A DNA stretch of 64,000 nucleotides from NCBI GenBank assembly GCA_030390025.1, contig CM059432.1:38256001-38320000 (forward strand), read 5' to 3'. The notes beneath the pieces are model-generated. The model was given only the letters and a program-made list of their open reading frames with translations. It was not told the origin of the DNA and ran no database searches. Positions 12,713 through 39,024 of the stretch are shown piece after piece. Made by a program: the position numbers and the translations under genes. The first letter of the stretch is position 1; each line of letters begins with the position of its first letter. The DNA is from Squalus acanthias. Lineage: Eukaryota.

Positions 12713-13006
12713 GGCCCCTGCCATTGCTACAAACACTAATCAACCCAGCACGCAACCCCTAAGCCGGCCAAGGCACCAATAATTCCAACCACCAGCCATG
12801 TATATTTTGAATACAGAAACTTATTTATTTTACAAACTCTGTGTGTGTCATTTCCTCATGACAAACTAATAGAAAGAAACACAAAAACACAGTCATTAAC
12901 ATAACTGGTTCTCACAACCTGGAGATAATGTTCAAAACACTAAATAAAAGTTTGACCACGAACCTCGGCCTTTAATAAAAAAATGACCAACATTTTGTCA
13001 CACCTC

Positions 13007-14948
13007 CTACTTTTTGCCCTTCGAGGGTGATCTCCTTCCCTTGCGTACTTCCCCCCTTCCCACCCTACTGCTCCTCCGTAATGGGACCCCAGTGGCTGCA
13101 GCAAGGCTGGTGGAAGGCTGCTGATTGTCAGAACCTGAGACTGCAGATGCCCTTGAAGGACGGCCTCGACCAGCTCTGGGCCTGGAGGGGCTGGCTGCAG
13201 ACTGCACCAACTCTGCATGGGCGGCAGCAGTCTGTCCTACAGGCGGTGGCAAGTGCAGTGGAGAAGTGACAGTGTTGGCAGCAGGAATGCTGTCATCGTG
13301 AGAGAGGCCAGCAACTCCCTGCTCGCCCGACACACTGGCACTCCCACGGGGCAGCACTTCAGCATCCGGAGCAATCTGCCGGAGAACAGATTGCTGGCCT
13401 GCTGCGGCGCGGTGACAGCCCCGGGGACATGTGCACGAACCATCGAGGTTGGCAGCAGTCTGTGCTCGCGTGGCCTCCATCTGAGTCTGTATGAGAGCAG
13501 TCAGAGGTGGGATCACGGCAGCCAGTGACTGAATTGCAGCACTAAGCGTTAGTGTGGCATCCGCCTGTGCTACAACGAAGTGCTCCACACTCCTTGCCAG
13601 TGACTCAATGCATTCGGGCACCCTTCCCACTGCACCCATGAGCTCAGTGTGCATGCCCACCGCCTGGGTGTTCATTTCTGCAATCAGCCGCTCCTCCTCT
13701 GCGTCCATTGCAGTAGGAGTGTCTGGCATACTCTCCCTCTGGGGAGAAGGCCCCCGTTCTTCCCTACCTCCCCCCATGGCGTTGCTGCAGCCCGCTGGGT
13801 CCTGGAGCTTCACCATCATCAGCCCCTTCCCCCCTGCTCCCCTCCGGGGAAGGCGTGTTCCCAGTGTGGGCATGGGCTTCCTCGGGAGAGGGTGGCACTG
13901 ATGCTCTGGCTTCCTCTTCCTCCTCAGCTGCAGCATCACTCCCAGTGGCAGCTTCAGGGCCCATCTCCTCAGCTGGTGAATCACCATCTGAAAGCAGGGA
14001 GGTACAAGAGTGGCTTTAGCGTGAGGACAGGGTGGCAGTAAGGGAGGAATAAGTGCAGCGAGTTAGCAAGTTGGATTGAAAGTGTCAAAGGCTGGTGTTG
14101 TGAGGGACAAGTGGAAGGACAGAGGACAAAAAGGTGATGACCTTACCATTGCTGTCCACAACGGGGTCGGCGTCTCCAGTGGCGACGGGACCGATCACCC
14201 GGCTTGCCACAATCCTGTGGACGCGCTCCTCCAGATCGCTGAGGGGTTGCAGCTGAAGCCGCCCTCCACCTGTCCGTTGCTGCTGTCTCCTATTATGAGC
14301 CAGCTTAGCCTGCAAGAAAAAGGACAGCATCTGAGTAAATATACAGCCATGGTCTTGCCTGATGTGCCTCCCATAGGTGAATAGCCCTTACTGTATACAG
14401 CCATGGTCTTGCCTGATGTGCCTCCCATAGATGAATAGCCCTTACAATATACAGCCATGGTCTTGCCTGATGTGCCTCCCATAGGTGAATAGCCCTTACT
14501 GTATGCAGCCATGGTCTTGCCTGATGTGCCTCCCATAGGTGAATAGCCCTTACTGTATGCAAAGTGTGGAATGTGTGTGTGTGTTTGATGAAAGGGCCAT
14601 AGGTGTTGGATGAGTGTTGTGCATTGGGGTGCATTGGGGTTTTAAGACCCTCTGGCCATAGAGTGAGGTTGAGATGGAGGGATGGAGAGGTATTGAGAAA
14701 AAGCCACTCACCCTGACGACCCGAGTGAGGTCGTTGAACTTTTTGCGGCATTGAGTATGGGTCCTGGGCACCATGCTCCTGGAGGAGACGCTCTGAGCCA
14801 CCTCCCTCCACACTCTTCTGAACTTGCGTGGCAAAGGCCTCCTGCCACTCTCAGGGAACAGCATACATCGTCTGCGCTCCACTGCGTCAACCAGAGCATC
14901 CAAGGCCCGCTCGGTGAAGCGATAAGCGCGTTCTCTCACCCTCTCCAT
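13007..14948 (-). CDS. Harbinger Myb/SANT-like protein, 3 exons (14948-14712, 14309-14147, 13987-13007) with a probable 1-nt frameshift near 13770-13776
   Basis: MERVRERAYRFTERALDALV...WREVAQ...QCRKKFNDL; canonical AGG|GTGAGT, TTGCAG|GCT, ATG|GTAAG, TTTCAG|AT junctions; spliced frame stops at 13764, while homology to copies 1 and 3 (MHTELMGA) continues in the shifted frame; basic NLS-like C-terminus. Confidence 0.8.
14341..14560. repeat. 54-bp tandem repeat x4 in intron 1 of the Myb gene
   Basis: Unit ATACAGCCATGGTCTTGCCTGATGTGCCTCCCATAGGTGAATAGCCCTTACTGT starting at 14341, 14395, 14449, 14503. Confidence 0.95.
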
Positions 14949-17877: not shown

Positions 17878-18413
17878 AAAGAATCTGCAAAGGGATATAG
17901 ATAGACTAAGTGAGTGGGCAGTAAGGTGGCAGATGGTGTATAATGTATGGAAATGTGAGGTTATTCACTTTGGCAGGAAGAATAGAAAAACAGAATATTT
18001 TTTAAATGGTGAGAAACTTTCAAATGTTGGTGTTCAGAGAGATTTGGGTGTCCTCGTGCAGGAAACACAGAAAGCTAGCATGCAGGTACAGCAAGCAATA
18101 AGGAAGGCAAATAGCATGTTGGCCTTTATTGCAAGGGGGTTGGAGTATAAGAGTAAGGAAGTCTTGCTACAATTGTACAGGACCTTGGTGAGACCACACC
18201 TGGAGTACTGTGCACAGTTTTGGTCTCCTTATCTAAGGAAGGATATACTTGCCTTGGAGGCGGTGCAATGACGGTTCACTAGATTGATTCCTGGGATGTG
18301 TCGAAGTTTGACTTCCGATTAAAGACTCTTGTAGACAATATCGTCAAAGAAGGCTTTTTATTATATTTTACTTGCAAGGAGACTGCAACCATAGCCCAAT
18401 TAGCTATGATGAC

Positions 18414-20074
18414 TGTAAGGGATTCTCTCCTGACCCTGCGTGTCTCGTAGCCTGTGAGATTCACGCGGCTCTGTGCAGCCTGTATGTCAGTGCGGGTCTA
18501 GGCCTGGTCTCCAGCCAGTCTGGGAACACTAGACACCCCTGTGAGTGGTTCGAATCACTCTCCCTTACGGTTCTAGACACTGGACTTAGATGCGAGAGCA
18601 GTAATGGAGATAAAACTCATGTAGACTTGGTTTGAACGGTACGAAATGGAAAATCTTTATTGCATGATACTTAAAATTATGAAATACATGTCATACGCAC
18701 AGATTAATGACAGTACGATCTTACAAACGGTTATAATCACTCTTAGGGAAACGAGGAACGACCAGCACAACGTAAATAGGGCACACATTACAAATATCCT
18801 TAATCTTTAAACCCTCCCCTATCAATATCTATCCTAAAACTAGCTTCGTAGGATCTCGAGACTCATGCTCACCACTCGTAATAACTCGGAGAAATCCCGA
18901 ATAGCTGATCGGATGTTTTTCACCGCAGCACCCACGTGTTGGTCAGGAGATCTCCTGGTCCCACTTGTTTACTGCTTCTGCTGCTCGGCTAGTCGGCTGG
19001 ACCGTCCGCTGTAGTGAAGACCTCTGTTGGTTGACTTCACAGTTTAGTTGAGGAGTCCCGTTGTCAATATCACTGATACGATGTGTTTGCACAGTCCAGT
19101 TATCGTTGATGCAATATGTCTTGTTAAAAGTTTAACGAAGAAAACTTCCTGTCGAGAAGACTTGGCTGATCGACCTACAGGCGCGGTCGGGATTTACTGA
19201 CCGTGGCGATGGATATGGTCTTCTTCTCTTCTCCTCTCATCTCATCTCATCTCATCTCGGGCCTTTGGTTCCGCTGCCAGTTACCAACATAGGTCTTCGT
19301 TACGCGACACGAGGTAGATCCGAACGGATCAGAAAGTTCAACAGTCTTTTACACAGGAGCAGCCACGAGGTTACGAATCGACCGGATAAAACACAGGAGC
19401 AGCCACGAATGCAGGAGCAAGGACAAGAGGCAAGCAGCAAGAGAGCGAATGGACGGTTTGGGGCCTGCAATTATAGTGCAAAATCTTCCGTTTCCCGCCC
19501 AACTATAATGTCCATTCTTTTGTTTAAGGTTTGGCGCCCAAATGTCCTGTATGGGTGATCTCCGTTCTTAATGGGTTTCGGGGCTACTCATGAATGTTTG
19601 AGTACCTGTTAATACTTCTCCCATTGTTAAATCGGTCGGTGTTCTCCCTGGAGGGGTTTGGGGCTTCCAAGTGTCCTGTATAACTACCTGCTAACGGCTC
19701 TCTCATCGTAGAGTCGTTGGGAGTTTACATATTAATGTCCTTTGGATGGGCCCTTGATTACTCGGTGCAATGGCTTTCCTTTGTACCTGGGAGACCGATT
19801 TCAGTATCTATGTTTATACTGCAAACCCATAATGTCTCGTGTATTACCTTCACTGTGCTGAATCGTTATCGATCTTGCAAAAATGTGTATTGGAACGCCA
19901 TCTTGTCTGCCTGTTGAAAAGTCTAGAATGTTCTGTCACGAGGTGCGGCGGCCATTTTACAGGCTGCTTGTGTCCAATTTAAACCTGACAGCATTCTGCT
20001 GAAATAAAAGCTGTTTGAACGAAACTTTGTGTTTGCTCCTTATTAATCAAATCGCGATAATTGCGAATTCTACA
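18414..20074 (-). repeat. 3' LTR (1661 bp)
   Basis: Minus strand TGTAGAATTC...CCCTTACA; direct repeat of 29455-31115; AATAAA (minus) at 18656-18661. Confidence 0.97.
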
Positions 20075-20495: not shown

Positions 20496-22848
20496 TTACA
20501 CGGTACTCTCGTCGTGCACGCGCACGTAACGTTCTCGCCACTCTCCCGTGTTCTCATGCTTGGTGAGGCGCTTGTCTCTTTTACAATGTATGAACAATAG
20601 GTACACTACAATAAACACTTGACAGACGACTAAAATGTGGGAGGCTATTCTGACCCATGAGGGCACTTCAATATTCGTGAACAGATTCCACCACGGTGGA
20701 ACCACTATGTCCAAGATGTCTGTTCCTATCTCGACAGTTTTCTGCTCTAATGTATAAAAATGCTTCTGTGATACCGCGACGGCTTTCAGAAGTTTGGTTA
20801 AATGCTCAGGGAGAGGGGGAATGAGGTATCCAAAATGCGCGACAAATCGCTGCAAGTCGGTGAAATTCTCTTTTACTGTGAGATGAACAGTGGATGGTTC
20901 AGGGATTGGGATAATTCGCTGTTGTGCTACTTGAACTTCAGCCCTGGGTTTAAAACAGGAACTGCTGTCACTCACCGGACACCGGCTACGGTTTCCATGC
21001 TGGTAGTGTTGCGCTGCAGTGGTAACACAGTATGTTCCACCCCCGATGTATGCTACCTGCGGAGGCACATGATCTTGTGCCATTGCCTCCATGGTGCAAT
21101 TCATGGACTTGGCGCCAGCCGTTCTGAACCCGCACTGTGGTGTTAAAAAGGCATTCAAGTGCTGGGGGCACAGTATTATGTGTGCTCCCCTGCCACGACA
21201 ACCAGAGAGATCTGTACCTGTCATCGTTTGCTCCCAGCGGATGACGTAAGGTGGAACCGCTGCATAACGAATGTGGGCTCCCCCCTGAATGACACCAATG
21301 TTCTCTACCCGATATACCGGGGCGGGCTTTGCTGTGTTGCCCAAAACCGGCATGCGTAATACTATTCCCATAATAGTATGGTTTGAACGTCCGCAGTCCA
21401 CGGGGACTGGGTAAGCTTCTGAAGCTAGCCTGAGCTGGCACGGACTTAATGCGTTCTGAAAAGGGTGGAGCGCCCGCAGGTGTTTGTTACTTATCCAGGA
21501 CGGAACCAAACCTTGTTTTAAATCCTCCAAATTACTGCGGCCCTCGCCCAGTAACCACGCCCCGTAAAGCACGCACACCTCGTTCTGCGCAGCTTGATCG
21601 GATGCATTCCGATCTTCCCTGATCAGGGCATTTACCGTACGCGCATGTTTCTCCAGCTCTGCTATAATCTCCTTTAAATGGAGAGTCATGGCTTGGTCCT
21701 CATGCAGACCTGACCCTACCACTTTATTCTCATCTGTTAGAATGTCTTTTAACTGTGTTTTTAAACCATTAATCTGGGTCTGCAGCTCCACACTGTCTAG
21801 AGCGTTGACCACAGATGTCCCTGTATTAAAAGCAGTGAACGCATCGTTCACCAAACCCCTTCTTTGCCTCCCTACTTGATCCAAAACTTCCTGCGGTGCG
21901 GTGTATAAACTTGTCTTATCAATTTCTGCAAAATCAAACTCGTAAAATTGTCTGAACATCTTGGTCAACAGGACCTGATACAACTGTTCCGTCTTTTTGG
22001 GGCACCACTCTGGTAACCGTACCTCAGTGAGATTTAAAATCACTGAGGCCACCGCGTAATGTACCCCCTGAAATAGTATCTGGTCTGTGGGGACCAGTAC
22101 CAAACCGTTCCCGGGTCCCTTACTAGTTTTAGGGCACCCTTCTTCCTCAGTTAGAACCACCGGAATCGTGGGCGGGGCTTTGCGTGGGCGCGTAATGAGC
22201 TCAGTGGCATTTACTGGGATCGGGGAGAATGGGGCTCCGCACCCCCTGGTGCTCGCATCCCACCTCATCCCCTGTCCGTTATCCTGCCACTGATTAATAA
22301 AAAAATATGGAGATGCCTTTGGGGCAAACGTACTTTGACCCCCACATACAAACATAAATCCCCTCATCCGGTTCCCACCATTTGTCCCAACAGACTTTCA
22401 CTTGTCCGTCTGTCCCCGTAATTGTCCGATGGGTATTATTACCCAGTCGTTCCCACTCGACCGAAGAGTTTCTCATAGTTTTGCTCAGCTTTCGCAGCCA
22501 CCACCATCGGCTCAATGGGACATCCCCACTACAGGTCAAACAAATCCGTTTGCCGACGGTGACGCTGATCCTGGGTGCGATGATCCGTACTTTGGGGCAC
22601 ATTAAAGAAGTCTCTTTGTAGGCGAACCCCGATGTGCTGGAATACTCCGTTGAGTTCGTTCCCAGCCATCCTGGCCACCTTCCCTTGTGGAAATAGGTGC
22701 TGGTCCCTTCTGCCTTCCGTCTCCCGGTCCCATCCACCGCGATGGGGGCCGTGTCCCCGGAACATCCAAACACCACGACATCCTTGGTGTGGCCTCGATA
22801 GGCCAATCCACATCCGATTGCCACGAGCAATACTATAAGTCGTTCCAT
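20496..22848 (-). CDS. env: Envelope-like glycoprotein (signal peptide, Ig-like domain, furin site, fusion peptide/heptad repeat, Cys-rich region, TM), split into two overlapping ORFs at a T7 run (22299-22305)
   Basis: MERLIVLLVAIGCGLA signal; ICLTC..W..DEGIYVC Ig signature; GRQRR/GLVNDAFTAFNTGTSVVNAL cleavage and fusion peptide; TM IASHILVVCQVFIVVYLLFI; removing one T gives a single 783-aa ORF. Confidence 0.88.
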
Positions 22849-22861
22849 CCTTCCTTGGTTC

Positions 22862-22880
22862 CTGTGATCAGATAGAATGA
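22862..22880 (-). promoter_or_regulatory. Candidate env splice acceptor
   Basis: TCATTCTATCTGATCACAG| lies 13 nt upstream of the env ATG. Confidence 0.45.
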
Positions 22881-23114
22881 GGTAGCCAGCCTCGCAAAAA
22901 GTCTCTGGCTTTTGTGAAGGGTGAGCGGGTCCCCTGACCTCGCCTCACGTAAACTTCAACGTTTGCTGAATAGACTTCCTCTAAAACCTAGCCTTAAAAA
23001 CTCCCACCATTTTATCGTTATCTGTTAAAACACTACAAACTTAACCTTGAACTAATAAACTTAAAACTTTAAACTAATAACTTTACAGTGCCGCCCGTTC
23101 TCAGGGCGGCCCCT

Positions 23115-26100
23115 TTAAATTCTGAGAAGGCTGCTGCGAGCTCTTCCCGACGGTGGGAGGGCACTGACCCTTCCCTCTGATCTGCCGCAGCCTGTTGCTG
23201 CGCTGACCCTTTCCTCTGATCTGCCGCAGCCTGTTACTGCTGCGATGTGGCCTGTCTCTACCCGGGTTATCTTAACCTGAACTTTACGCCTTGGGGCAGT
23301 CTGGGGACATGACCACATCCTCCTGGGCTGGGGTTCTCTGCTAGACCTACGGGGAGTTGCTATGGGCGGGGGTTCCGTGACGGACGGACCGGGTTCCGGG
23401 ACCTCCAACGGGACGACCTGGGGTTCCATCACAGTCGCCGGCTCCGCCTCCGCTGACTCCGCCTCCCTAACCCCGGGGCTGGCATTTCGTGGCTCCGCCC
23501 TGCTCGGCCCAGCAGGCGGCCCTTCACTCGTGATCTCTGCCTCCCCTGAGGACTGGACGTTCAAAGCGGGCGGCCACCCCTCTGGGAACCACATTGGTAC
23601 TCTCTGTGCTCCTATAGCGGCTGGCCCTGCCTCCTCTAGCTCCTCCCTCCTGTCCTCGGGACCTGCAGCTTGTGTGTCCACCCCGTGTGGATCTCTACCT
23701 ATCGGCCCCAATCCTCCCAGACCGTTCCTCAGGAACCACCCGTCATCATCACTATACTCATCTGCACTATCCTCATCTGACCAGGGTACCCTGGGTTCTT
23801 CGTCATCTAACCCCCAACTCCAGAAAAACGCTGCATGATCGTCCGGGATGTCCCTTCCCCTGATGCAAGCTGCTACGCCTGCCTGTGTGCCTTGTGGTCC
23901 TACCTGGGGCTGCGTTTTCCCATTGGCGGGATTTACCCCTGTAGTTTTCCCTTGCGCACCCGGCTGGTACAGTTTACATTGGTTTATGTGGAACCACTTA
24001 GTGCGCCGAGGTACTTTTACGGCGTAAACCATGGGACTCGCCTTGTCTACAATGTTGTAGGGTCCCATATACAGTGGTTCCAGACTCCCTACTCTGGCGT
24101 AGTTTCTGACCATGACCTGGTCTCCTACTTCCCACTCCCGCGTTTTGCGGGGTTCCAGCAACAAGCGATTGCCCTGATGCTGCCTTCCCATGTTCCCAGC
24201 CGCCTGCTCATAAACTTGCTTCAGGCGCTCCAAGAGAGTTTGGGCGAACTTGTCCCTGCTGATCTCTTGAAGCTGACCCTCAGTGAGCACCGGGGCTAGC
24301 ACATGGGTGGGGGTTCGCATGAGCCTGCCGGTCATTACCTCGTGCGGGGAGTACCCCGTACTTTTTGACTGACTGGCCCGGACCCCCATGAGGACTAAAG
24401 GCAGAACTTCCGCCCATTTTTGGGGCGAGTTCCTAGTCTCTTTCCTCAATTTCTCCTTCAGGGTCCGGTTCATACGTTCAACAATCCCGGATGACTGGGG
24501 ATTGTGTGCTACGTGCCACTTCCCTTCAATGCCCAAAAGCATGAGGGTGTTCTGCATCACCTGGCCGGTGAAATGACTCCCTTGGTCTGACTCCACAAAA
24601 CGGGGGAGTCCCCACCGCGAGAACACTTCCCGGACCAAGATTTTTGCTGTACCCAGTGCCGTAGCTGTTCGACAAGGGAAGGCTTCCACCCACTTGGAAA
24701 ACACATCCACCAGGACGAGGCAGTACTTATAACCTCCCTGGGTGGTGGGCAGGGGTCCTATATAGTCGATCTGTATCGACTGCCATGGTCCCTCTACCCT
24801 TCTTACGTGTCCCATGGGCACCTTCCTTTTCTGGGGGTCTGGGTTGTTTGCAGCGCACACAAGACAGTTAGCGCAGAACTCGCGGACTTGTTCCCTGAGC
24901 CCTGGCCACCATCCCGCTTGCTCTACCCGTTGCCAGGTAACCTCGGGCCCGGGGTGCCCTGCCCCTGGTCCCTCGTGAGCCAACTGGAGGAATTCCCTCC
25001 TGTGCTGCTGCGGCACAACCCACTGCTCCCCGCGGAACAGCATGCCTTCCTTAACTGAGAGGGTTGCCGTACTGTACGGACCTTCTACCTGCCTCCCCTC
25101 AGCAATCGTTTTTAGGACTGCTTTTAGGGCGGGATCCTGGGCTTGGACGGTCTTAAGGTCTAGGGGCAATGCTACCCTGGTGTTCCCGGTATTCCCGTCC
25201 CCGCCTCGGACCGCTGCTATGGGTCCGGTCCTATACGGGTTCCAGAAAGTGCCGTTGCGGGCACCCTCCCTGGCTAGCGCATCTGCCTGCCGGTTGCCCT
25301 CCCCACGGGGCTCTGCGGAGGAGTGAGCTTTCACCTTATGGATGAAAATCTCCCCTTCCTCCCCTACTGCTGCCGCTAAGATCTTTTCCAGCAAGGGCTT
25401 CACCGTTAAAGGTCGCCCGTCCGCGGAGGTGTATCCGCGGCGGGACCAAATGGCCAGGTATTCCGTACACGAATTGCAGGTGAACATACTGTCCGAGCAA
25501 ATCGTGTATGGGGTTGGGAAAATGTCTGGGTGGGTCACCACGTACACCACGGCAGACAGCTCAGCCTGCTGCGCGCTCATGGTGCTAGGGAGCTTGATCG
25601 CCAGGGCAAGGTCTGCCGCAGGGTCATAAACTCCACACCCTGTGAGTCGCTCGCCAGCAGATACTGTGCTAGACCCATCAACATAAATCTCGCGCCCAGT
25701 GGGATGTATCCCGGCCCGCAAACCTATGTTGACGTCCCACACCCCTTCCACCGAACATCGGTGGGCTGTACCGGGGTATACCAAATTGGCCGCAAGCCTG
25801 GGCTCGCAAAGACCTTTTACTCTAAGATCCAACTGGGAGAGAAGAAGGGTCCAACGCGCAATGCGTGCGCTGCTTACGGTCCCGTCTTTAATCCTCCCAT
25901 CCAGAAGCATCTTAGTTGGTGTGTGATGTGTGAGGAGAGTGATGGGAGAGAGCCCTGTGAAGATCGCTGATCTTTTCACAGCCCAATGCGTGGCCAAAAG
26001 GTGCCTTTCGCAATTGGAGAAACTTCTCTCCACATCCGTTAATACCCTGGATGAATAGACAACCGGCCTCAGCTTGCCGTGACGCTCTTGGAGCAGCACG

Positions 26101-27638
26101 GCGCTTAAGCTGTCTCCGCTGGCAGCTACCTCCAGGAAAAACTCCTTCCCCCCATCTATGGCCCCTAAGGCTGGCGCGGTCTGCAGATCCCTTTTTAACT
26201 TCTCGAAGGCTGCTTGGCAGCCCTCGTCCCAAGACCACTCCACTCCCTTATGGAGGAGTCGGAGGAGCGGCGCCGCTGTGGCCGCATAATCTTCGATAAA
26301 ATCCCTGCAGTAACCGGTCAGTCCCAAGAAGGACCTCACACCCCTTACGTTGTTGGGAATCGGTAATTCTTGCACCGACTCCCTCCTTGCTTTGTCTATG
26401 GCTCTTTCCCCAGCGCGTAGGGTCAGTCCCAGGAATTTTACTTCCTGCTGACCGATACGTGCTTTCTTTGGGTTTACTTTAAAACCCTTTCTCGCTAACA
26501 GCTCCAATAACTCGTCCAGTAGTGGTCCGTGCTCCTCCCTTGAGTCCGTAAATAGGAGCAAATCATCCACATACTGTACTATCTGATTGGGCTGACTAAA
26601 CTCCTTTAAACTTCCTGCCATACACTGATGAAAAATACTGGGGCTATTGTGGAAACCCTGTGGCAAACAGTTCCACGTGTACTGTTGTCCTTTAAACGTA
26701 AAGGCAAACTTGTACTGGTCCTCTCGCCGCAGCGGGATGGACCAAAAACCGTTCGAGATATCCAGCACCGTGAACGTGGTCGCGGACGCTGGGATGCTCC
26801 CTATTAGGTCAGCAACTGCTGCTACTGTAGGCGCGCAGGCGGGAATGTTACTGTTAAGGACTCTGTAGTCCACCGTGGCTCTCCACGAATTATCCGGCTT
26901 CCTAACCGGCCATAATGGGGAGTTCACGTGTGTGGCTATCGGCCTCAACACGCCCTGCTGCACCAAGGAAGACATTGCAGCCTCCATATCGGGTTCTGCT
27001 TCTTTGGGGAAGTTATACTGCTTTTGGGGTCGGGTCATGGGGTCCCCATCTACGCTGACCTCAAACCCGACCACCCTCCCACAATCGTGCTTGTGGGTTG
27101 CAAACGCGTGCATGTTATCTGACACGTACGTTTGCATGTCCGTTGGGACATCTGCGACCATAAGCCTGAGGTCGTAGCCTCCGGATGGCTGTATGGTACA
27201 CAGGACCCCTGTTTCTTCCTCTCCTTGAATTACCATTACCTCGCCTTTTTCACCTTTAGCCCCCCAGAGACAGTGATTTCTGAGGTCCACGAGGATCCCG
27301 TGTCCCGCTAGGAGATCGGACCCGAGAATACCTCTTCCACCCCCCTTTTGCCATGCCATCAGTATACACTTCCACTTAAGGCGAAGTGTTCCTAAACGAA
27401 TGGATAGCGGGAGGGAAAACGTGCCAGCCTGTTCTTTCCCTGTGAACCCTGCTAGCGTGAATGGGACCTTGGTAGATAGCGGCGAGTCAAAAGGGTCATC
27501 TGTATGGATTATGGTGCAAGAAGCTCCCGTGTCCAACAAATAACTGCCTTTCTGTTTCTCTACCTCCATCTCCACCACAGGTCGCCTCCACGCATCATAG
27601 CTGAGCGGACACAGGTAGACGGGCTGTGCTGGTTCTAG
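23115..27638 (-). CDS. pol: Pol polyprotein: protease, RT, degenerate RNase H (tether), active RNase H, integrase with GPY/F motif, long C-terminal tail
   Basis: LLDTGAS; LDISNGF, LPQG, QYVDD; FLEVAAS..RPVVYSSR; IYVDGSS..AQQAEL..CSDS..HKVKAH..GNRQADALA; H-H-C-C, IQIDYIG, ESDQGSHF, SSGIVERMN; YMGPY. Open and in frame from the gag stop. Confidence 0.96.
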   Translation of the reverse strand, partial: LEPAQPVYLCPLSYDAWRRPVVEMEVEKQKGSYLLDTGASCTIIHTDDPFDSPLSTKVPFTLAGFTGKEQAGTFSLPLSIRLGTLRLKWKCILMAWQKGGGRGILGSDLLAGHGILVDLRNHCLWGAKGEKGEVMVIQGEEETGVLCTIQPSGGYDLRLMVADVPTDMQTYVSDNMHAFATHKHDCGRVVGFEVSVDGDPMTRPQKQYNFPKEAEPDMEAAMSSLVQQGVLRPIATHVNSPLWPVRKPDNSWRATVDYRVLNSNIPACAPTVAAVADLIGSIPASATTFTVLDISNGFWSIPLRREDQYKFAFTFKGQQYTWNCLPQGFHNSPSIFHQCMAGSLKEFSQPNQIVQYVDDLLLFTDSREEHGPLLDELLELLARKGFKVNPKKARIGQQEVKFLGLTLRAGERAIDKARRESVQELPIPNNVRGVRSFLGLTGYCRDFIEDYAATAAPLLRLLHKGVEWSWDEGCQAAFEKLKRDLQTAPALGAIDGGKEFFLEVAASGDSLSAVLLQERHGKLRPVVYSSRVLTDVERSFSNCERHLLATHWAVKRSAIFTGLSPITLLTHHTPTKMLLDGRIKDGTVSSARIARWTLLLSQLDLRVKGLCEPRLAANLVYPGTAHRCSVEGVWDVNIGLRAGIHPTGREIYVDGSSTVSAGERLTGCGVYDPAADLALAIKLPSTMSAQQAELSAVVYVVTHPDIFPTPYTICSDSMFTCNSCTEYLAIWSRRGYTSADGRPLTVKPLLEKILAAAVGEEGEIFIHKVKAHSSAEPRGEGNRQADALAREGARNGTFWNPYRTGPIAAVRGGDGNTGNTRVALPLDLKTVQAQDPALKAVLKTIAEGRQVEGPYSTATLSVKEGMLFRGEQWVVPQQHRREFLQLAHEGPGAGHPGPEVTWQRVEQAGWWPGLREQVREFCANCLVCAANNPDPQKRKVPMGHVRRVEGPWQSIQIDYIGPLPTTQGGYKYCLVLVDVFSKWVEAFPCRTATALGTAKILVREVFSRWGLPRFVESDQGSHFTGQVMQNTLMLLGIEGKWHVAHNPQSSGIVERMNRTLKEKLRKETRNSPQKWAEVLPLVLMGVRASQSKSTGYSPHEVMTGRLMRTPTHVLAPVLTEGQLQEISRDKFAQTLLERLKQVYEQAAGNMGRQHQGNRLLLEPRKTREWEVGDQVMVRNYARVGSLEPLYMGPYNIVDKASPMVYAVKVPRRTKWFHINQCKLYQPGAQGKTTGVNPANGKTQPQVGPQGTQAGVAACIRGRDIPDDHAAFFWSWGLDDEEPRVPWSDEDSADEYSDDDGWFLRNGLGGLGPIGRDPHGVDTQAAGPEDRREELEEAGPAAIGAQRVPMWFPEGWPPALNVQSSGEAEITSEGPPAGPSRAEPRNASPGVREAESAEAEPATVMEPQVVPLEVPEPGPSVTEPPPIATPRRSSREPQPRRMWSCPQTAPRRKVQVKITRVETGHIAAVTGCGRSEERVSAATGCGRSEGRVSALPPSGRARSSLLRI

Positions 27639-29450
27639 TCATGGGGCACTATTAGACGGTCCTGCGGCACCTACGGGGCCGGTTGCGACCGCCACCTGTC
27701 CACGCGCATTCAAAACCATCTTGCGCATGACTCCTAGCACTGCTTCGAGGTCTTCGGGAGAGGTGGGTGCCTTTGCTTCCTTAGGCGGGACAGGCGCCTG
27801 GGCTCGGACCGCGGGATTTTTATCCTTGGAATCCTTCCAAGGGTTCCTGCAGTGCTTGCACCAGTGCCCTGTCTTCCCACACCCGTAACAGGCATTACTT
27901 GCCTGTGGGGCGCGATTACCCTCCTGATGCCACTCTCTTTGAGCTGGGGCTGCGGGTCGTACCTCATGTACTCTTCCCTTAAAGGGACGTGTCGTCATAC
28001 CCCTTATGTTACGGTAACCTAACGTGAGTCGATTCAAGACCGACTCTTCCGTAAGGTTGAGGTCATTGGGATCGAACCAGGCTTTTGCCTGCTCTCTAAC
28101 GGCTGGTAAACTGTTGGCTATTATGCACCTAAGCCAATGAATTAAAGCGGCGCCTTCCACATCTTCGCGCTCGGGCGCACCTAGACAGCTGCGCTCATAT
28201 ACTGGCCACAGCCTGTCGGCAAAAACCTTCGGGGGTTCTCCCTCCATCTGCACTGTCTGTCCCACTCTAGCAAACGGACCTCCGTCGTTCGCCCCCACTA
28301 CTTCTAGGACCTCATTTTTCAATTCCTCATAACTTTTATTTCCCCTCTTGCTCTCGCCTGAGAGACACTGAAGGACCGAGCTATCTAACGAGAACAGCAG
28401 CATTTTTGCTGTCTCCCCATCATCGCAGCCGTTAATGGCTGCGGCTTGCTCAACTTCCCTGAAATGTACGGAAGGGTCGTCTATCTCGGTCAGCTTCCTT
28501 ACGTGGTTTATCATGGCTCTCAGCTGATGTGAACTGTGAGGCAACACCAGCTGTCCGAGGAGATCCCCCGGTTCTTCCCCACCGTTTCTGCTTGGGCCCC
28601 TTTTAATCCCCGTTACTGGATACAACGATCCCTTTTCTACTTCCTTTTCAACGGGCTCTTTTGTTTCTTCCGTTGCTTCCTCCCTAACCCAGGTTTCTGA
28701 ATAGCTGGGTGGCGCGGAGGGCGCAGTGGCTACTACTTCTTCTGCTTTACTTGGTGGGGAATTTCTAAATCTCTCATTTACTAGCGGCTGGCGCGCCGAC
28801 GGATTGATAAGGCACACCATGCCGTTCGCATTATTCACGGCCTTTTTAAGGCTCTCTATCTCTTTTTGGCAGGCGCTATGGTCGGCTCCCTGAAACTTAT
28901 CCTCAAGGGCCAACTTATACGCCGACCTAACCCCCATTAAGCTCTCTTCCTGAGTTCTTATCTGGGCAGCTTGACGGTTACATCTTTCCTTCATCCTACT
29001 CTCATTCAATTTTGCTTCAGTGATCTGGCACTCGAGATACTCTACCCTTGTTTTAAGGTAACTGGAGACTTCCTGGCTTTCCTGGCGTAACTCATTTAAA
29101 CTCTTAATGAGCACCTCCCCTCCAGAAACCTTTTCCTCCATTTCCTCCTCTAAATGCTTGATTCGAGCTGTTAGCGCTGTATTGGTCTGGTTTGAAATCT
29201 GAACCTGCCTTTTGTAGCACATAAGCCAGACTGCTTTCTCAACTGCCTTTTTATGCTCCTTACTATCAGTCCACCTTTCAGCTGCCTCTAGTGGGCTCTT
29301 ATCCGCTAACAATTCGCTTATCCACTTTTTAGTTAGATTAACCTTTCCAAACACATAATCCGCTATCTTTTCCTGCATCACATTTCGTACAGTCATTCCA
29401 AAATCTAACACACTACCCTCTCGCTGCCAGTGTCCTGCCGCGGTCGCCAT
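27639..29450 (-). CDS. gag: Gag (coiled-coil N-terminus, capsid-like region, one CCHC zinc knuckle)
   Basis: 603-aa open ORF between PBS and pol; CYGCGKTGHWCKHC fits CX2CX4HX4C; PSAP and PPSY late-domain-like motifs (APSAPPSY). Confidence 0.92.
   Translation of the reverse strand: MATAAGHWQREGSVLDFGMTVRNVMQEKIADYVFGKVNLTKKWISELLADKSPLEAAERWTDSKEHKKAVEKAVWLMCYKRQVQISNQTNTALTARIKHLEEEMEEKVSGGEVLIKSLNELRQESQEVSSYLKTRVEYLECQITEAKLNESRMKERCNRQAAQIRTQEESLMGVRSAYKLALEDKFQGADHSACQKEIESLKKAVNNANGMVCLINPSARQPLVNERFRNSPPSKAEEVVATAPSAPPSYSETWVREEATEETKEPVEKEVEKGSLYPVTGIKRGPSRNGGEEPGDLLGQLVLPHSSHQLRAMINHVRKLTEIDDPSVHFREVEQAAAINGCDDGETAKMLLFSLDSSVLQCLSGESKRGNKSYEELKNEVLEVVGANDGGPFARVGQTVQMEGEPPKVFADRLWPVYERSCLGAPEREDVEGAALIHWLRCIIANSLPAVREQAKAWFDPNDLNLTEESVLNRLTLGYRNIRGMTTRPFKGRVHEVRPAAPAQREWHQEGNRAPQASNACYGCGKTGHWCKHCRNPWKDSKDKNPAVRAQAPVPPKEAKAPTSPEDLEAVLGVMRKMVLNARGQVAVATGPVGAAGPSNSAP
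29432..29449 (-). promoter_or_regulatory. Primer binding site, tRNA-Arg(UCG)-type
   Basis: Plus strand GTCCTGCCGCGGTCGCCA (18 nt, ends in CCA) matches the 3' end of vertebrate tRNA-Arg-TCG as I recall it; 5 nt from the 5' LTR. Confidence 0.85.
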
Positions 29451-29454
29451 TTTC

Positions 29455-31115
29455 TGTAAGGGATTCTCTCCTGACCCTGCGTGTCTCGTAGCCTGTGAGA
29501 TTCACGCGGCTCTGTGCAGCCTGTATGTCAGTGCGGGTCTAGGCCTGGTCTCCAGCCAGTCTGGGAACACTAGACACCCCTGTGAGTGGTTCGAATCACT
29601 CTCCCTTACGGTTCTAGACACTGGACTTAGATGCGAGAGCAGTAATGGAGATAAAACTCATGTAGACTTGGTTTGAACGGTACGAAATGGAAAATCTTTA
29701 TTGCATGATACTTAAAATTATGAAATACATGTCATACGCACAGATTAATGACAGTACGATCTTACAAACGGTTATAATCACTCTTAGGGAAACGAGGAAC
29801 GACCAGCACAACGTAAATAGGGCACACATTACAAATATCCTTAATCTTTAAACCCTCCCCTATCAATATCTATCCTAAAACTAGCTTCGTAGGATCTCGA
29901 GACTCATGCTCACCACTCGTAATAACTCGGAGAAATCCCGAATAGCTGATCGGATGTTTTTCACCGCAGCACCCACGTGTTGGTCAGGAGATCTCCTGGT
30001 CCCACTTGTTTACTGCTTCTGCTGCTCGGCTAGTCGGCTGGACCGTCCGCTGTAGTGAAGACCTCTGTTGGTTGACTTCACAGTTTAGTTGAGGAGTCCC
30101 GTTGTCAATATCACTGATACGATGTGTTTGCACAGTCCAGTTATCGTTGATGCAATATGTCTTGTTAAAAGTTTAACGAAGAAAACTTCCTGTCGAGAAG
30201 ACTTGGCTGATCGACCTACAGGCGCGGTCGGGATTTACTGACCGTGGCGATGGATATGGTCTTCTTCTCTTCTCCTCTCATCTCATCTCATCTCATCTCG
30301 GGCCTTTGGTTCCGCTGCCAGTTACCAACATAGGTCTTCGTTACGCGACACGAGGTAGATCCGAACGGATCAGAAAGTTCAACAGTCTTTTGCACAGGAG
30401 CAGCCACGAGGTTACGAATCGACCGGATAAAACACAGGAGCAGCCACGAATGCAGGAGCAAGGACAAGAGGCAAGCAGCAAGAGAGCGAATGGACGGTTT
30501 GGGGCCTGCAATTATAGTGCAAAATCTTCCGTTTCCCGCCCAACTATAATGTCCATTCTTTTGTTTAAGGTTTGGCGCCCAAATGTCCTGTATGGGTGAT
30601 CTCCGTTCTTAATGGGTTTCGGGGCTACTCATGAATGTTTGAGTACCTGTTAATACTTCTCCCATTGTTAAATCGGTCGGTGTTCTCCCTGGAGGGGTTT
30701 GGGGCTTCCAAGTGTCCTGTATAACTACCTGCTAACGGCTCTCTCATCGTAGAGCCGTTGGGAGTTTACATATTAATGTCCTTTGGATGGGCCCTTGATT
30801 ACTCGGTGCAATGGCTTTCCTTTGTACCTGGGAGACCGATTTCAGTATCTATGTTTATACTGCAAACCCATAATGTCTCGTGTATTACCTTCACTGTGCT
30901 GAATCGTTATCGATCTTGCAAAAATGTGTATTGGAACGCCATCTTGTCTGCCTGTTGAAAAGTCTAGAATGTTCTGTCACGAGGTGCGGCGGCCATTTTA
31001 CAGGCTGCTTGTGTCCAATTTAAACCTGACAGCATTCTGCTGAAATAAAAGCTGTTTGAACGAAACTTTGTGTTTGCTCCTTATTAATCAAATCGCGATA
31101 ATTGCGAATTCTACA
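29455..31115 (-). repeat. 5' LTR (1661 bp)
   Basis: Near-identical to 18414-20074; differences noticed at 19351/30392 (A/G) and 19714/30755 (T/C). Confidence 0.97.
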
Positions 31116-31618
31116 TGACAGACTGCCGAATCACAGAAAATGGCGTATTCTTATACAGTATAATATCACATGACATGTTGTTTAAGGTAAGCTAAGTTAA
31201 AAATTAAGAAAAACACATAAGAAATGCCTTACAATGAGACTAGCTAATCTCTATAAAATGGAGTCTATCTAGTTTACTTCTCTCACCAAGGCCAAGGCGC
31301 CTGGTTTGTTTACTTTACTAGCCCTTGGTTATCTCAATATTAAGCCTGTTTTCTTTTGTGCAGGCAGTCTTTTGCTGACAGCATAGTCTAATACTTTAAA
31401 GTTATTTTCAGAAAAGAACATAACAATGGATTTTTCCCTTTTCCACACAAGTCAGAGTCGGCCATTTTATTAGTTTAAATTCAAGGAAACTATTTTGTCC
31501 GAGACAAAAACTGCACTTCCACAGATGAAAGAGTTGTCTTATGAGGAAAGGTTGAGCAAGTTGGGCCTATACTCATTGGAGTTTAGAAGAATGAGAGGTA
31601 ATCTTATTGAAATATATA

Positions 31619-34387: not shown

Positions 34388-37205
34388 TCACGTCCACTTC
34401 CCTGCCCGCTCCCCATAACCCTTAATTCCCTTATCAGCTAGGAAACTGTCTATCTCCGTTTTAAATTTATTTAATGTCGCAGCTTCCACAGCTCTCTGAG
34501 GTAGCAAATTCCATAGATTTACAACCCTCTGAGTGAAGAAGTTTCTCCTCATCTCAGTTTTGAAACGGCAGCCCCTTATTCTTAGATTATGCCCCCTAGT
34601 TCTAGTCTCACCCATCAGTGGAAACATCCTCCCCGCCTCCACCCGATCAAGCCCCCTCACAATCTTATATGTTTCGATAAGATCGCCCCTCATTCTTCTG
34701 AATTCCAATGAGTAGAGGCCCAACCTACTCAACCTTTCCTCATAAGTCAACACCCTCATCTCCGGAATCAACCGAGTGAACCTTCTCTGAACTGCCTCGA
34801 GAGCAAGTATATCTTTTCTTAAATATGGAAACCAAAACTGTACGCAGTATTCCAGGTGTGGCCTCACCAGTACCTTGTATAACTGAAGCAAGACTTCCCT
34901 GCTTTTATACTCCATCCCCCTTGCAATAAAAGCCAAGATTCCATTGGCCTTCCTGATCACCTGCTGTACCTGCATACTAACCTTCTGTGTTTCATGCACC
35001 AGGGCCCCCAGATCCCTTTGTACTGTAGCACTTTGCAGTTTCTTTCCATTTAGATAATAACTTGCTCTTTGATTTTTTTCTGCCAAAGTGCATAACCTCA
35101 CACTTTCCAACATTATATTCCATCTGCCAAATTTCCGCCCACTCACTTAGCCTGTCTATGTCCTTTTGCAGGTTTTTTATGTCCTCCTCACTCACTGCTT
35201 TTCCTCCCATCTTTGTATCGTCAGCAAACTTGGATACGTTGCACTTGGTCCCCTCCTCCAAATCGTTAATATAGATTGTAAAGAGTTGGGGTCCCAGCAC
35301 TGACCCTTGCGGAACACCACTAGTTACAGATTGCCAACCCGAGAATGAACCATTTATCCCAACTCTCTGTTTTCTGTTAGATAGCCAATCTTCCACCCAT
35401 GCCAGTATATTACCCCCAATCCCGTGATTTTTTCTCTTGTGCAGTAATCTTTTGTGTGGCACCTTATCAAATGCCTTTTGGAAGTCCAAATACACCACAT
35501 CAACTGGTTCCCCTTTATCCACCCTGTTTGTTACATCCTCAAAGAATTCGAGCAAATTTGTCAAGCATGATTTCCCCTTCATAAAACCATGCTGACTCTG
35601 TCCGATTAAATTATGCTTATCCAAATGTCCTGTTACTGCTTCCTTAATAATGGACTTCAACATTTTACCAACCACAGATGTTAGGCTAACTGGTCTATAG
35701 TTTCCAGCCTTTTTTCTACCTCCCTTTTTAAATAAGGGCGTTACATTAGCAGTTTTCCAATCTGCTGGGACCTTTCCCGAATCCAGGGAGTTTTGGAAAA
35801 TTACCACCAATGCATCCGCAATCCCTACTGCTGCTTCTCTCAAGACCCTAGGATGTAAGCCATCAGGTCCAGAGGATTTATCCGCCTTAAGTCCCATTAT
35901 CTTACCGAGTATCATCTCCTTAGTGATTTTAATCGTGTTTAGCTCCCCCCGCCCCCATAGCCCCCCCATTTGTCCAGTGTTGGGATATTTTTAGTATCCT
36001 CTACTATAAAGACTGATACAAAATATTTGTTCAGCGTATTTGCCATCTCCGTGTTCCCCACTACTAATTTCCCGGTCTCGTCCTCTAAGGGACCAACATT
36101 CACTTTAGCCACCCTTTTTCTTTTTATATAACTGTAGAAACTCTTGCTATCTGTTTTTATATTTTTTGCTAGTTTACTTTCATAATCTATCTTCCCCTTC
36201 TTAATTAATCTTTTAGTTATTCTTTGCTAGCTTTTAAATGCTTCCCAATCTTCTATCCTCCCACTAGATTTGGCTACTTTATATGCCCTTGTTTTCAGTC
36301 GGATACTATCCTTTATTACTTTACTTAGCCACGGATGGCTGTCTTTTCTTTTACGCCCCTTTTTCCTCAGTGGAATATATTTTTCTTGAAAGTTGTAAAA
36401 TACCTCCTTGAATGTACACCACTGCTCCTGTACCGTCTTACACCTTAATCTATTTTCCCAGTCCACTTTAGTCAACTCTGCTCTCATACCTTCATAGTCT
36501 CCTTTATTTAAGCTTAGTACGCTGGTTTGAGATCCAACTCTCTCACCCTCCAACTGAATTTGGAATTCAACCATGTTATGGTCACTCATTCCAAGGGGAT
36601 CCTTTACTAGGACATTTTTTATTAATCCTGTCTCATTACACAGGACCAGATCTAAGATTGCCTGCCCCCTGGTTAGTTCAGTAACATACTGCTCAAGGAA
36701 CCCGTCCCTAATGCACTCTATGAACTCTTCCTCAAGGCTACCCTGCCCAATTTGACTTGTCCAGTCAATATGAAAGTTAAAATCTCCCATGATTATAGCT
36801 GTTCCCTTATTACAAGCCCCAACTATTTCCTGATTTATACTCCGACCAATAGAGTTACAACTGTTAGGAGGCCTATAGACTACGCCCACTAGTGACTTTT
36901 TCCCCTTATTATTCCTTATCTCCACCCAAACTGTTTCACTATCCTGATCCTTTGACCCAATATAATTTCTCACTATTGCAGTGATTCCATCCTTTATTAA
37001 CATAGCCACCCCACCTCCCTTTCCTTCCTGTCTGTCCTTCCTAATAGTCAAATACCCCTGGATGTTTAGTTCCCAGTCATGGTCACCTCGCAGCCATGTT
37101 TCTGTAATGGCCACCAGATCATACCCATGTGTAGTTATTTGTACCGTCAACTCGTCTATTTTGTTACGAATGCTGCGTGCATGCAGATAAAGAACTTTTA
37201 AACAT
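34388..37205 (-). pseudogene. CR1 ORF2 (AP endonuclease + reverse transcriptase), one stop and two frameshifts
   Basis: AITETWL, GDFN, SDHN (APE); YLDFQKAFDKV, GVPQGSVLGP, KFADDTK (RT); broken at ~36227, ~35965, ~35080. Confidence 0.92.
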
Positions 37206-37379
37206 GTTTTGTGTCAATTTATTCCTGCTTTTACCCCCTTTACTACTTTACCTTTATCTTTATATATTCTGTCCCTTCCTGACACGCTCTGGTTTTTAAT
37301 TTCCCCACTGCTAATTTGCTCTATTGCCTTCTCCGCTGACATTTTTATTCTTCGCTCTCTTGAAACTCCCCCCCACTAA

Positions 37380-38336
37380 TTAGTTTAAAGCCCTCTCTAC
37401 AGCCCTAGTTATTCGATTCGCCAGGATTCTAGTCCCAGCACTGGCCAAGTGAAGTCCGTCCCAACGGAACAGCTCTCTCCCGTCCCAGTACTGGTGCCAG
37501 TGTCCCAAGAAGCAAAACCCATTTCTCCCACACCAGTCTTTGAGCCACGCATTTAACTCTCTGATTTTATTTACCCTAGCCAAATTTGCTCGTGGCTCAG
37601 GTAGTAATCCAGAGATTATTACCCTTGTGGTTCTGCTTTTTAATTTGGCCCCTAGCTGCTCATACTCCCTCAGCAGAACCTCTTTCCTTGTCCTATCTAT
37701 GTCGTTGGTACCAACATGGACCACGACAACTGGATGCTCCCCCTCCCACTCCAAGTTTCTCTCCAGCCCAGAGGAGATGTCCTTAACCCTGGCACCGGGC
37801 AGGCAACACAACCTTCGGGACTCTCGCTCTCGGCTGCAAAGAACCCTATCTATCCCCCTTATGATACTATCCCCTACCACTACAACATTTCTTTTTACTC
37901 CCCCCACTTGAATGGCCCCCCATTCCACGGTGCTGTGGCCAGGTTGCTCATCCTCCCTGCAGTCCCTGCTCCTGTCCTCACAGGGAGTAAGAGCCTCGAA
38001 CCTGTTGGACAAGAGCAAGGGCCGCGGCTCCTCCAACACTATCTCCTGGATCCCCGTACCTGCCTCACTCATAGTCACACTCTTCTGTCCCTGACCACGG
38101 ACTACATCTGAATTAGTTAATCTAATTGGTGTGACTACTTCCTGGAACACAGAGTCCAGGTAACTCTCCCCCTCCCTGATGTGTCGCAGTGTTTGAAGCT
38201 CGGACTCCAGCTCATCAACACGGAGCCGGAGTTCCTCGAGCAGCCAACACTTACTGCAAATGTGATCACCGTGAGCATCAATGGTGTCCACCAGCTCCCA
38301 CATATTGCAGCAGTAACACATCACCTGCTCTCCCAT
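37380..38336 (-). CDS. CR1 ORF1: zinc finger/leucine zipper plus SGNH (GDSL-like) esterase domain
   Basis: CYCC..CSKC, LEELRLRVDELESEL, VVGDSIIRG, LPGA, VHVGTND, DGLHL; open 318 aa. Confidence 0.9.
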   Translation of the reverse strand: MGEQVMCYCCNMWELVDTIDAHGDHICSKCWLLEELRLRVDELESELQTLRHIREGESYLDSVFQEVVTPIRLTNSDVVRGQGQKSVTMSEAGTGIQEIVLEEPRPLLLSNRFEALTPCEDRSRDCREDEQPGHSTVEWGAIQVGGVKRNVVVVGDSIIRGIDRVLCSRERESRRLCCLPGARVKDISSGLERNLEWEGEHPVVVVHVGTNDIDRTRKEVLLREYEQLGAKLKSRTTRVIISGLLPEPRANLARVNKIRELNAWLKDWCGRNGFCFLGHWHQYWDGRELFRWDGLHLASAGTRILANRITRAVERALN

Positions 38337-39024
38337 TCTATGTAATTAATTTAATTTATTAATATTTTTTAAATACCCTCTGCCCCGTCTGATGAATATC
38401 ACACCTTAGAAACTATAAACCACAGAGTTTAAGTTTAAAAAGAGAGAAATACTCACCAACCAATTACTTACCTGCTTTCTGGTGATGTCACACCTCGATT
38501 ATTTTTACCTCTCTCCCTCCCTCCGAGTTCGGAGACTGGTCCCGCCTTACCTGGTCTCTGGAGCCTTTTAAACCCTCTGCCGCCGCCTCGCCTCACGCAG
38601 GTCCGCCGCCGCACCAGGAAGCTGACAAAGATGGAAAAAGGAAGGAACACCTCCCTCCCTGCACTCCCTCACTCACCAAACTCGCAGTTTAACACTCTGT
38701 TCCAATCTGCACTCCGAGACAAACTGCACTCTAGTGATTGTCAGTGTTTGCAGCATTTCAATGCTGTCAAACACTGAGAAATGAGCTGTCAAAGAAAACT
38801 TGTGCATGGTCCCTTTAAGAAAATCAGCAGATGACACGTCATCAAATGACGTCATCTGACCGGCTTCCTCTTAATTGGCCGGCAAGCCCGCAGGGCAGTC
38901 TTAACAAGACCAATCGACGTAAAATCACATCCGTGGGCCGGATGCAGTTGGGGGCGGGACTGGAACCCGGAAACCAGCTGACCCGCTCCCAAGCCGCATC
39001 CATTTGCAAAATCGAGGCCAGAGA

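What the first reader, a model, noticed from the sequence alone, without database searches (positions are those of the whole stretch)
27579..27645. gag-pol expressed by UGA-CUAG stop-codon readthrough
Seen: gag ends CCA UGA CUA GAA and the same frame stays open for 20 codons (LEPAQPVYLCPLSYDAWRRP) into the protease. Known: UGA-CUAG is a strong leaky-termination context in cellular and alphavirus genes, whereas gamma/epsilon-retroviruses read through UAG with a downstream structure and most Gypsy elements frameshift. Inference: readthrough sets the Gag:Pol ratio here.
Basis: partly seen in the sequence, partly recalled or inferred. Interest (0 to 1): 0.7.

Follow-up and report, generated by a model that had tools for sequence, protein, structure and literature searches.

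The report
Leaky opal stop in shark-type retrovirus
A young endogenous retrovirus of the cartilaginous-fish type separates its gag and pol genes by a single UGA stop followed by CUAG, a leaky-stop signal known from alphaviruses and some vertebrate genes, so it most likely makes its enzymes by readthrough: a familiar strategy with a signal not found reported for retroviruses.

Summary
Confirmed, on the minus strand. The site is the gag-pro junction of a 12.7-kb provirus whose LTRs differ at 2 of 1661 bases. CCA-TGA-CTA-GAA holds the only stop in 2111 codons; pol runs on for 1507 codons and its first Met lies inside the protease. The stop is not decay: 4 of 5 Gag homologues (43-51% identical) end within one residue of it, and a contig from another run bridges it unchanged. 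The element is a basal, snakehead-retrovirus (SnRV)-like retrovirus, not Gypsy and not a lokiretrovirus (AU p=0.0008); its env carries a frameshift. Best reading (0.88): programmed type II (UGA-CUA) readthrough giving a minority Gag-Pol, perhaps helped by a hairpin 6 nt downstream (modest support). Readthrough was not measured. Gag-pol readthrough, including predicted UGA junctions in fish and frog retroviruses, is known; the CUAG context was not found in print. The same in-frame TGA-CTA stands unremarked in 6 of 24 published lokiretrovirus consensus sequences, with CGA-CTA in one more. SnRV itself uses UAG-G and many lokiretroviruses have fused gag-pol, so convergence is likelier than shared ancestry. 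New variant of a known kind.

The parts
29455..31115 (-). 5' LTR, 1661 bp, TG...CA ends
   Evidence: 99.88% identical to the 3' LTR (2 differences)
18414..20074 (-). 3' LTR; 4-bp target-site duplication TGAC at 18410-18413 and 31116-31119
29432..29449 (-). primer-binding-site-like 18-mer, 5 nt after the 5' LTR; overlaps the first gag ATG
   Evidence: 13 of 18 positions match the same site in CmiERV scaffold 2 (by eye); assignment to tRNA-Ser is recalled
27639..29450 (-). gag, 603 aa from the first ATG, one CCHC zinc knuckle at 27890-27849
   Evidence: skate homologues start at the same Met and end at the same place
27635..27641 (-). readthrough site UGA-CUAG, preceded by a CCA (Pro) codon
   Evidence: unchanged in contigs of runs X11 and X9
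27572..27632 (-). predicted extended stem-loop from +7 to +67 after the stop
   Evidence: pair probabilities 0.7-0.85; z from -2.4 to -0.4 for windows starting at +1 or +7; 11 of 84 gag-pol windows reach z <= -2
23115..27638 (-). pro-pol, 1507 codons in the gag frame: protease (catalytic Asp at codon 36; first Met at codon 24), RT (YVDD), tether, RNase H, integrase, ~280-aa low-complexity tail
22294..22944 (-). 5' part of env (signal-peptide-like start)
   Evidence: 71-73% identical to the N-terminal part of skate proteins P0273 and P0275
20496..22397 (-). 3' part of env (furin-like RQRR, hydrophobic C-terminal segment), in another frame than the 5' part: env is broken by a frameshift in the overlap
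   Evidence: both parts lie in one protein in P0273 and P0275

Best explanation
The full-length LTR transcript is translated from the gag ATG. Most ribosomes stop at the UGA and release a 603-aa Gag; a minority insert an amino acid by near-cognate decoding (Arg, Cys or Trp by analogy) and go on through protease, RT, RNase H and integrase to give a 2111-aa Gag-Pol. The signal is the type II context UGA-CUAG, possibly strengthened by the hairpin that starts 6 nt after the stop. Shown: anatomy, single in-frame stop, conserved stop position, first Met inside the protease. Inferred: readthrough itself, a level of a few percent, the residue inserted, any role of the hairpin (about even odds).
For: Single in-frame stop in 2111 codons, between NC and protease, the layout of SnRV, MLV-like and SSSV-like loci. 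First Met of pol (codon 24) lies inside the retropepsin match that starts at codon 17 (E 0.00095, just under the curated cut-off); the PL...RP segment before it is also seen in SnRV, P0009 and P0011. 4 of 5 Gag homologues end within one residue of the stop; the fifth is a 334-aa truncated model. Contig X11-3 bridges the site with one difference, at 27546. 11 of 14 listed variant places in pol are third codon positions (p 0.0007). UGA-CUAG gave efficient readthrough in four mammalian genes, about 3.5% to 31% in reporters (PMC4132726); UGACUA is the alphavirus type II motif and fused MoMLV gag-pol mutants do not replicate (PMC13517186). In-frame TGA-CAT-G in elephant-shark CmiERV lineage I and TGA-CTA in six lokiretrovirus consensus sequences, read by eye.
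Against: No measurement of readthrough, no protein or raw RNA data. For the skate and Logan Gag homologues only the stop position is known, not the codon or its context. The hairpin is not exceptional within gag-pol and loses significance in some windows (z up to +1.2); no covariation test was possible. A candidate splice acceptor lies at 27601. This copy has a broken env, so it is not wholly intact. CUAG alone does not guarantee a useful level: only 4 of 23 human UGA-CUAG genes had a coding signature beyond the stop. In Tca2 a gag-UGA-pol junction failed to direct readthrough in a yeast reporter (PMC2194720 abstract).
Confidence: 0.88

Rival explanations
1. Splicing bypasses the stop: a donor in gag or the leader joins an acceptor just downstream, giving Gag-Pol or Pol without recoding.
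For: An AG ending at 27601 has 14 of 19 pyrimidines before it; 23 of 615 AGs in gag-pol reach 13 or more. It lies before the protease match. SnRV has complex splicing and foamy viruses express Pol separately.
Against: Splicing would not require gag and pol to share a frame, nor a CUAG context. After that acceptor the first ATGs are out of the pol frame and the first in-frame Met is inside the protease. The pyrimidine tract is also coding and forms the 5' arm of the hairpin.
Confidence: 0.05
2. Pol is made on its own by reinitiation or from an internal promoter, starting at Met24.
For: P0005 (84% identical) has a Met at the same position; Tca2 has a minor promoter in its gag-pol junction.
Against: Met24 cuts off the first strand of the protease match and the conserved PL...RP segment; relatives have their first Met at other places, 3 to 28 residues before the catalytic Asp, SnRV only at residue 124. 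A Pol without Gag lacks the usual packaging route (established retrovirology).
Confidence: 0.04
3. The TGA is a nonsense mutation (CGA to TGA decay) in an originally fused gag-pol ORF.
For: The copy has another lesion, in env. Ten of 24 lokiretrovirus consensus sequences are annotated as fused gag-pol, one with CGA-CTA at this position. A coelacanth gene model (P0009) reads through the junction with Gln-Gly. 124 variant rows were not shown.
Against: About 4 substitutions are expected in gag-pol since insertion; 22 of 680 stop-prone codons lie in the linker and 1 of 221 TGA-neighbours precedes CTAG; 17 CGA codons are intact. Gag homologues at 43-51% identity end at the same place. The stop is shared with contigs of runs labelled as two different organisms.
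Confidence: 0.02
4. The UGA is decoded as selenocysteine.
For: It is an in-frame UGA with a hairpin close downstream in a vertebrate genome.
Against: No Rfam match at 27300-27900 (the 3' end of the element was not scanned for a SECIS); the position is a linker, relatives have UAG or other contexts there.
Confidence: 0.01

Closest known systems
Snakehead retrovirus (SnRV) and SnRV-like ERVs, including elephant-shark CmiERV lineage I
   Same: gag and pro-pol in one frame, split by one stop about 30-45 codons before the catalytic Asp; Gag ends in Pro in SnRV; Pol 33% identical over 775 aa; shared RT motifs; weak colinear Env similarity.
   Different: SnRV uses UAG-GGC, CmiERV-I has TGA-CAT-G (by eye). 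The trees do not make the window a sister of SnRV: it sits in an unresolved basal grade with amphibian and coelacanth elements.
Gammaretrovirus readthrough (MoMLV: UAG-G, 8-nt spacer, pseudoknot)
   Same: Same logic and position of the stop; small share of Gag-Pol.
   Different: Amber codon with G at +4 and a pseudoknot; here opal with CUAG and a predicted simple stem-loop; separate RT clade.
Type II UGA-CUA readthrough of alphaviruses and of OPRL1, OPRK1, AQP4, MAPK10
   Same: Identical heptamer UGA-CUAG; purine before the stop; polymerase downstream and a 3' stem-loop as in alphaviruses.
   Different: Those are tested; this is not. The alphavirus structures span 126-177 nt; the hairpin here spans 61 nt.
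Lokiretroviruses (PMC7947760)
   Same: gag-pol-env with tether plus RNase H; Env with an RXXR site and F-like features (weak); TGA-CTA in frame at the junction of six teleost consensus sequences.
   Different: RT has LPQG, not PFG...NSP; Loki-motif proteins are split from the window and all retroviruses at SH-aLRT 99, one clade rejected at p-AU 0.0008.
SSSV, ZFERV, RMEV, XtERV-S (UGA junctions)
   Same: Opal stop between gag and pol, readthrough predicted.
   Different: Contexts UGAAGA, UGACGA, UGAAGU, none CUA; epsilon-related or class III. The XtERV-S context was not read.

Membership tests
Retroviridae-type ERV | paired LTRs, TSD, PBS, gag-pro-pol-env order | tested here: met
Retroviridae-type ERV | tether plus second RNase H | tested here: met
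   RT_RNaseH 470-602 and RNase_H 650-793
Retroviridae-type ERV | RT groups with retroviruses, apart from Gypsy | tested here: met
   Searches (100; 99), quick trees
SnRV-like clade | monophyly with SnRV in Pol/RT trees | tested here: inconclusive
   same basal grade, no supported sister relation; motifs shared
Lokiretrovirus | RT inside the Loki clade | tested here: not met
   the five references are unnamed proteins picked by the PFG..NSP.EF motif, not the published sequences
Lokiretrovirus | Env similar to paramyxo/pneumovirus F | tested here: inconclusive
   Baculo_F and Fusion_gly clusters at 0.92-0.94, low recognition score; no Pfam hit; model pLDDT 34
Ty3/Gypsy | single RNase H, RT in Metaviridae | tested here: not met
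Type II readthrough site | UGA followed by CUA or CGG | tested here: met
Type II readthrough site | stop position conserved in relatives | tested here: met
Type II readthrough site | conserved 3' stimulatory structure | tested here: inconclusive
   predicted, modest z, no DNA of relatives for covariation
Type II readthrough site | measured readthrough product | not testable with these tools
   needs a reporter, ribosome profiling or proteomics
Type III (gammaretroviral) readthrough site | UAG-G with spacer and pseudoknot | tested here: not met
   codon is UGA, +4 is C; pseudoknots were not modelled

The most novel reading that the evidence does not exclude
UGA-C(UA) readthrough is an overlooked, old way of making Gag-Pol near the root of the retroviruses: it recurs in this cartilaginous-fish lineage, in CmiERV-I (UGA-C) and in a teleost branch of lokiretroviruses, the sister group of retroviruses, where the codon toggles between opal and Arg as in alphaviruses. 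UAG-plus-pseudoknot and frameshifting would then be later replacements of a host-type leaky-stop signal.
Probability: 0.2. Interest if true: 0.72.

Novelty: new variant of a known kind. Interest (0 to 1): 0.47.

Why it matters
It would add a third signal type to retroviral gag-pol expression: the alphavirus and host-gene motif UGA-CUAG, not listed for any retrovirus in a 2026 review of animal-virus readthrough. The same motif in lokiretroviruses shows the signal arose at least twice, or is very old, in aquatic retroviruses. In practice these junctions are mis-annotated as separate genes with truncated proteases, and a near-intact young copy gives a clean 200-nt fragment for a reporter test.

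Tried and rejected
First idea, lokiretrovirus membership: rejected. No whole genome is held, so paralogues could not be tallied directly. The search for related loci gave no close relative: 15 viral loci, best 40% segment identity, and 80 kept of 425 metagenome loci, at most 40%. No RNA holder listed for the junction: no evidence either way. Contigs cannot show absence of rare variants; 124 rows of letters were not shown. Single-sequence model of the env 3' part: pLDDT 34, no fold search run. Rfam scan of 27300-27900: none. No canonical slippery heptamer within -150..+120 (none printed), and the frames are the same, so frameshifting was dropped. The careful tree did not finish; quick trees were used. 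Junctions of Loki-Bsp and Loki-Tfu could not be read as DNA because search terms span line ends. Earlier findings of this scan: nothing. Literature searches without a report of this motif in retroviruses: lokiretrovir + readthrough, 0 papers; retrovirus + TGACTA + gag + pol, 0 papers; subscription papers and Repbase reports are not covered.
Full report
Observation. The finding lies on the minus strand, where the sequence reads GCC CCA TGA CTA GAA CCA. The frame is open for 620 codons before the TGA and 1507 after it, and this is the only internal stop in 2111 codons counted from the first ATG. TGACTA occurs once in the 12.7-kb element.

The element. Two 1661-bp LTRs (18414-20074 and 29455-31115) differ at 2 positions and are flanked by a TGAC duplication, so the insertion is young. 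Gag has one CCHC knuckle. Pol carries protease, RT, a degenerate RNase H (tether), a second RNase H and integrase. Two overlapping ORFs downstream are one protein in two skate models (P0273, P0275), so env is broken by a frameshift in this copy. The named homologues of Env and Gag come from a sawshark and a skate, which points to a cartilaginous-fish host; that is inference.

Placement. The best Pol hits are an unnamed 84% relative and amphibian and coelacanth proteins at 45-47%. I first took it for a lokiretrovirus. Its RT motifs instead match snakehead retrovirus (by eye; L001: 33% over 775 aa). In a 31-row RT-plus-tether quick tree, five proteins with the Loki RT motif form their own clade (99) and are split, with Gypsy, from the window and all retroviruses (99); holding them together with the window is rejected (p-AU 0.0008). 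Those five are unnamed and were picked by motif from 147 hits. The window sits in an unresolved basal grade and is not shown to be the sister of SnRV. PMC4422223 (main text part 1 of 2) already reports SnRV-like ERVs in elephant shark.

Is the stop real? LTR divergence predicts about 4 substitutions in gag-pol. Only 22 of 680 stop-prone codons lie in the knuckle-to-protease linker, 1 of 221 codons next to TGA is followed by CTAG, and 17 CGA codons are intact. Of five Gag homologues fetched, four (three skate loci at 50-51%, one unnamed at 43%) end within one residue of the window's stop; the fifth is a truncated 334-aa model. That search covered only 341-1085 aa, so full fused forms could not appear. 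Four of 24 listed runs were laid on 27000-28400: a contig of X11 spans 27520-27677 with a single difference at 27546; a contig of X9 covers the stop unchanged but only 5 letters beyond it; none of the 40 listed variant places falls in 27635-27641, but 124 more were not shown. Of those 40, 11 of 14 in pol are third positions (p 0.0007) and 13 of 26 in gag (p 0.06); they are the best-supported rows and not independent.

How Pol must be made. The first Met after the stop is codon 24, inside the retropepsin match that starts at codon 17, and the PL...RP segment before it recurs in SnRV, P0009 and P0011. No frameshift is needed or signalled. SnRV, MLV-like, REV-like and SSSV-like loci show the same layout with TAG-G or TGA-A. 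UGA-CUAG is an experimentally shown leaky context in four mammalian genes (PMC4132726, passages) and UGACUA is the alphavirus type II motif (PMC13517186, section 2 part 1, section 4.2.4 and passages). Readthrough by a near-cognate tRNA giving a minority 2111-aa Gag-Pol is therefore the best reading (0.88). It was not measured.

Downstream structure. A hairpin from +7 to +67 is predicted with pair probabilities of 0.7-0.85; the 166-nt region has z -2.8, shorter windows range from -2.4 to +1.2, and 11 of 84 gag-pol windows reach -2. It is a lead only. An AG at 27601 with a pyrimidine-rich tract keeps splicing alive as a minor rival; Tca2 is a caution that a gag-UGA-pol junction may not read through on its own (PMC2194720, abstract).

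What is known. Gag-pol readthrough defines gamma- and epsilonretroviruses; UGA junctions are listed for SSSV (UGAAGA) and two ERVs (UGACGA, UGAAGU), SnRV has UAGGGC, and the review has no mention of lokiretroviruses. XtERV-S also has TGA (PMC8278194, passages). Eight library searches found no report of UGA-CUA at a retroviral junction; subscription journals and Repbase are outside them. Passages of PMC5210030, PMC5512871, PMC12440569 and PMC12193657 and a term search of PMC9040795 held nothing on it.

A wider pattern. In the supplement of PMC7947760 (passages, read and translated by eye; file cut when stored; main text parts 1-3 of 4 read), 6 of 24 lokiretrovirus consensus sequences show an in-frame TGA-CTA upstream of the protease: Ofa, Cne, Pyo, Sau with G next, Dcl and Lro with A. 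Pfl has CGA-CTA-A at that place, Tfu an ambiguous residue before Leu-Ser. Against a general rule: 10 of 24 are annotated as fused gag-pol (junction DNA seen only for Pfl), Bsp was not seen, six have no usable junction, and in Lch the heptamer is out of frame. The word readthrough does not occur in that supplement. Elephant-shark CmiERV scaffold 2 has an in-frame TGA-CAT-G (by eye), and a coelacanth gene model has Gln-Gly across the junction. The motif thus recurs in two distant groups of aquatic retroviruses amid other states; convergence on a strong host-type leaky context is likelier than one ancient origin (0.2).

Verdict. Observation confirmed, interpretation supported. It works like alphavirus type II readthrough, placed where gammaretroviruses put UAG. 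New variant of a known kind; interest 0.47.

Noticed in passing
window 29432-29450 (-): The first gag ATG overlaps the primer-binding-site-like sequence, 4 nt after the 5' LTR, leaving no leader between PBS and gag; two skate Gag models start at the same Met. The packaging signal would have to lie in the long LTR or in gag.
   Followed up: partly
window 22294-22397 (-): env is split by a frameshift; both parts are one protein in skate homologues. A homopolymer sequencing error is not excluded.
   Followed up: partly
window 20496-22397 (-): Env features resemble baculovirus F and paramyxovirus fusion glycoprotein clusters (low recognition) although the RT is not lokiretroviral; weak colinear match to SnRV Env.
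   Followed up: partly
window 22294-22850 (-): The 5' part of env has Cys/Trp spacing reminiscent of an Ig-like domain (recalled motif; no Pfam hit); frog model P0007 ends in a similar segment.
   Followed up: no
window 23115-23950 (-): Pol has a ~280-aa low-complexity tail after the integrase, with a short direct repeat near its end; frog relatives end soon after the integrase.
   Followed up: no
window 45870-47487: A solo-LTR-like relative, about 90% identical, in the opposite orientation: an older member of the family.
   Followed up: partly
window 27607 (runs X4, X9, X11): Contigs of three runs match the stretch on the stop side of 27607 and diverge just beyond it; one X3 contig matches up to 27643 and diverges in gag. 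Possibly sister subfamilies that keep the junction-proximal sequence; how far the matches reach is not shown.
   Followed up: partly
PMC7947760 supplement (not in the window): Unremarked TGA-CTA, CGA-CTA and ambiguous codons at the gag-pol junction of teleost lokiretrovirus consensus sequences.
   Followed up: partly
window 34388-38345 (-) and 11351-14062: Several other long ORFs (250-450 codons) and dispersed repeats outside the provirus, probably LINE and other repeat remnants.
   Followed up: no
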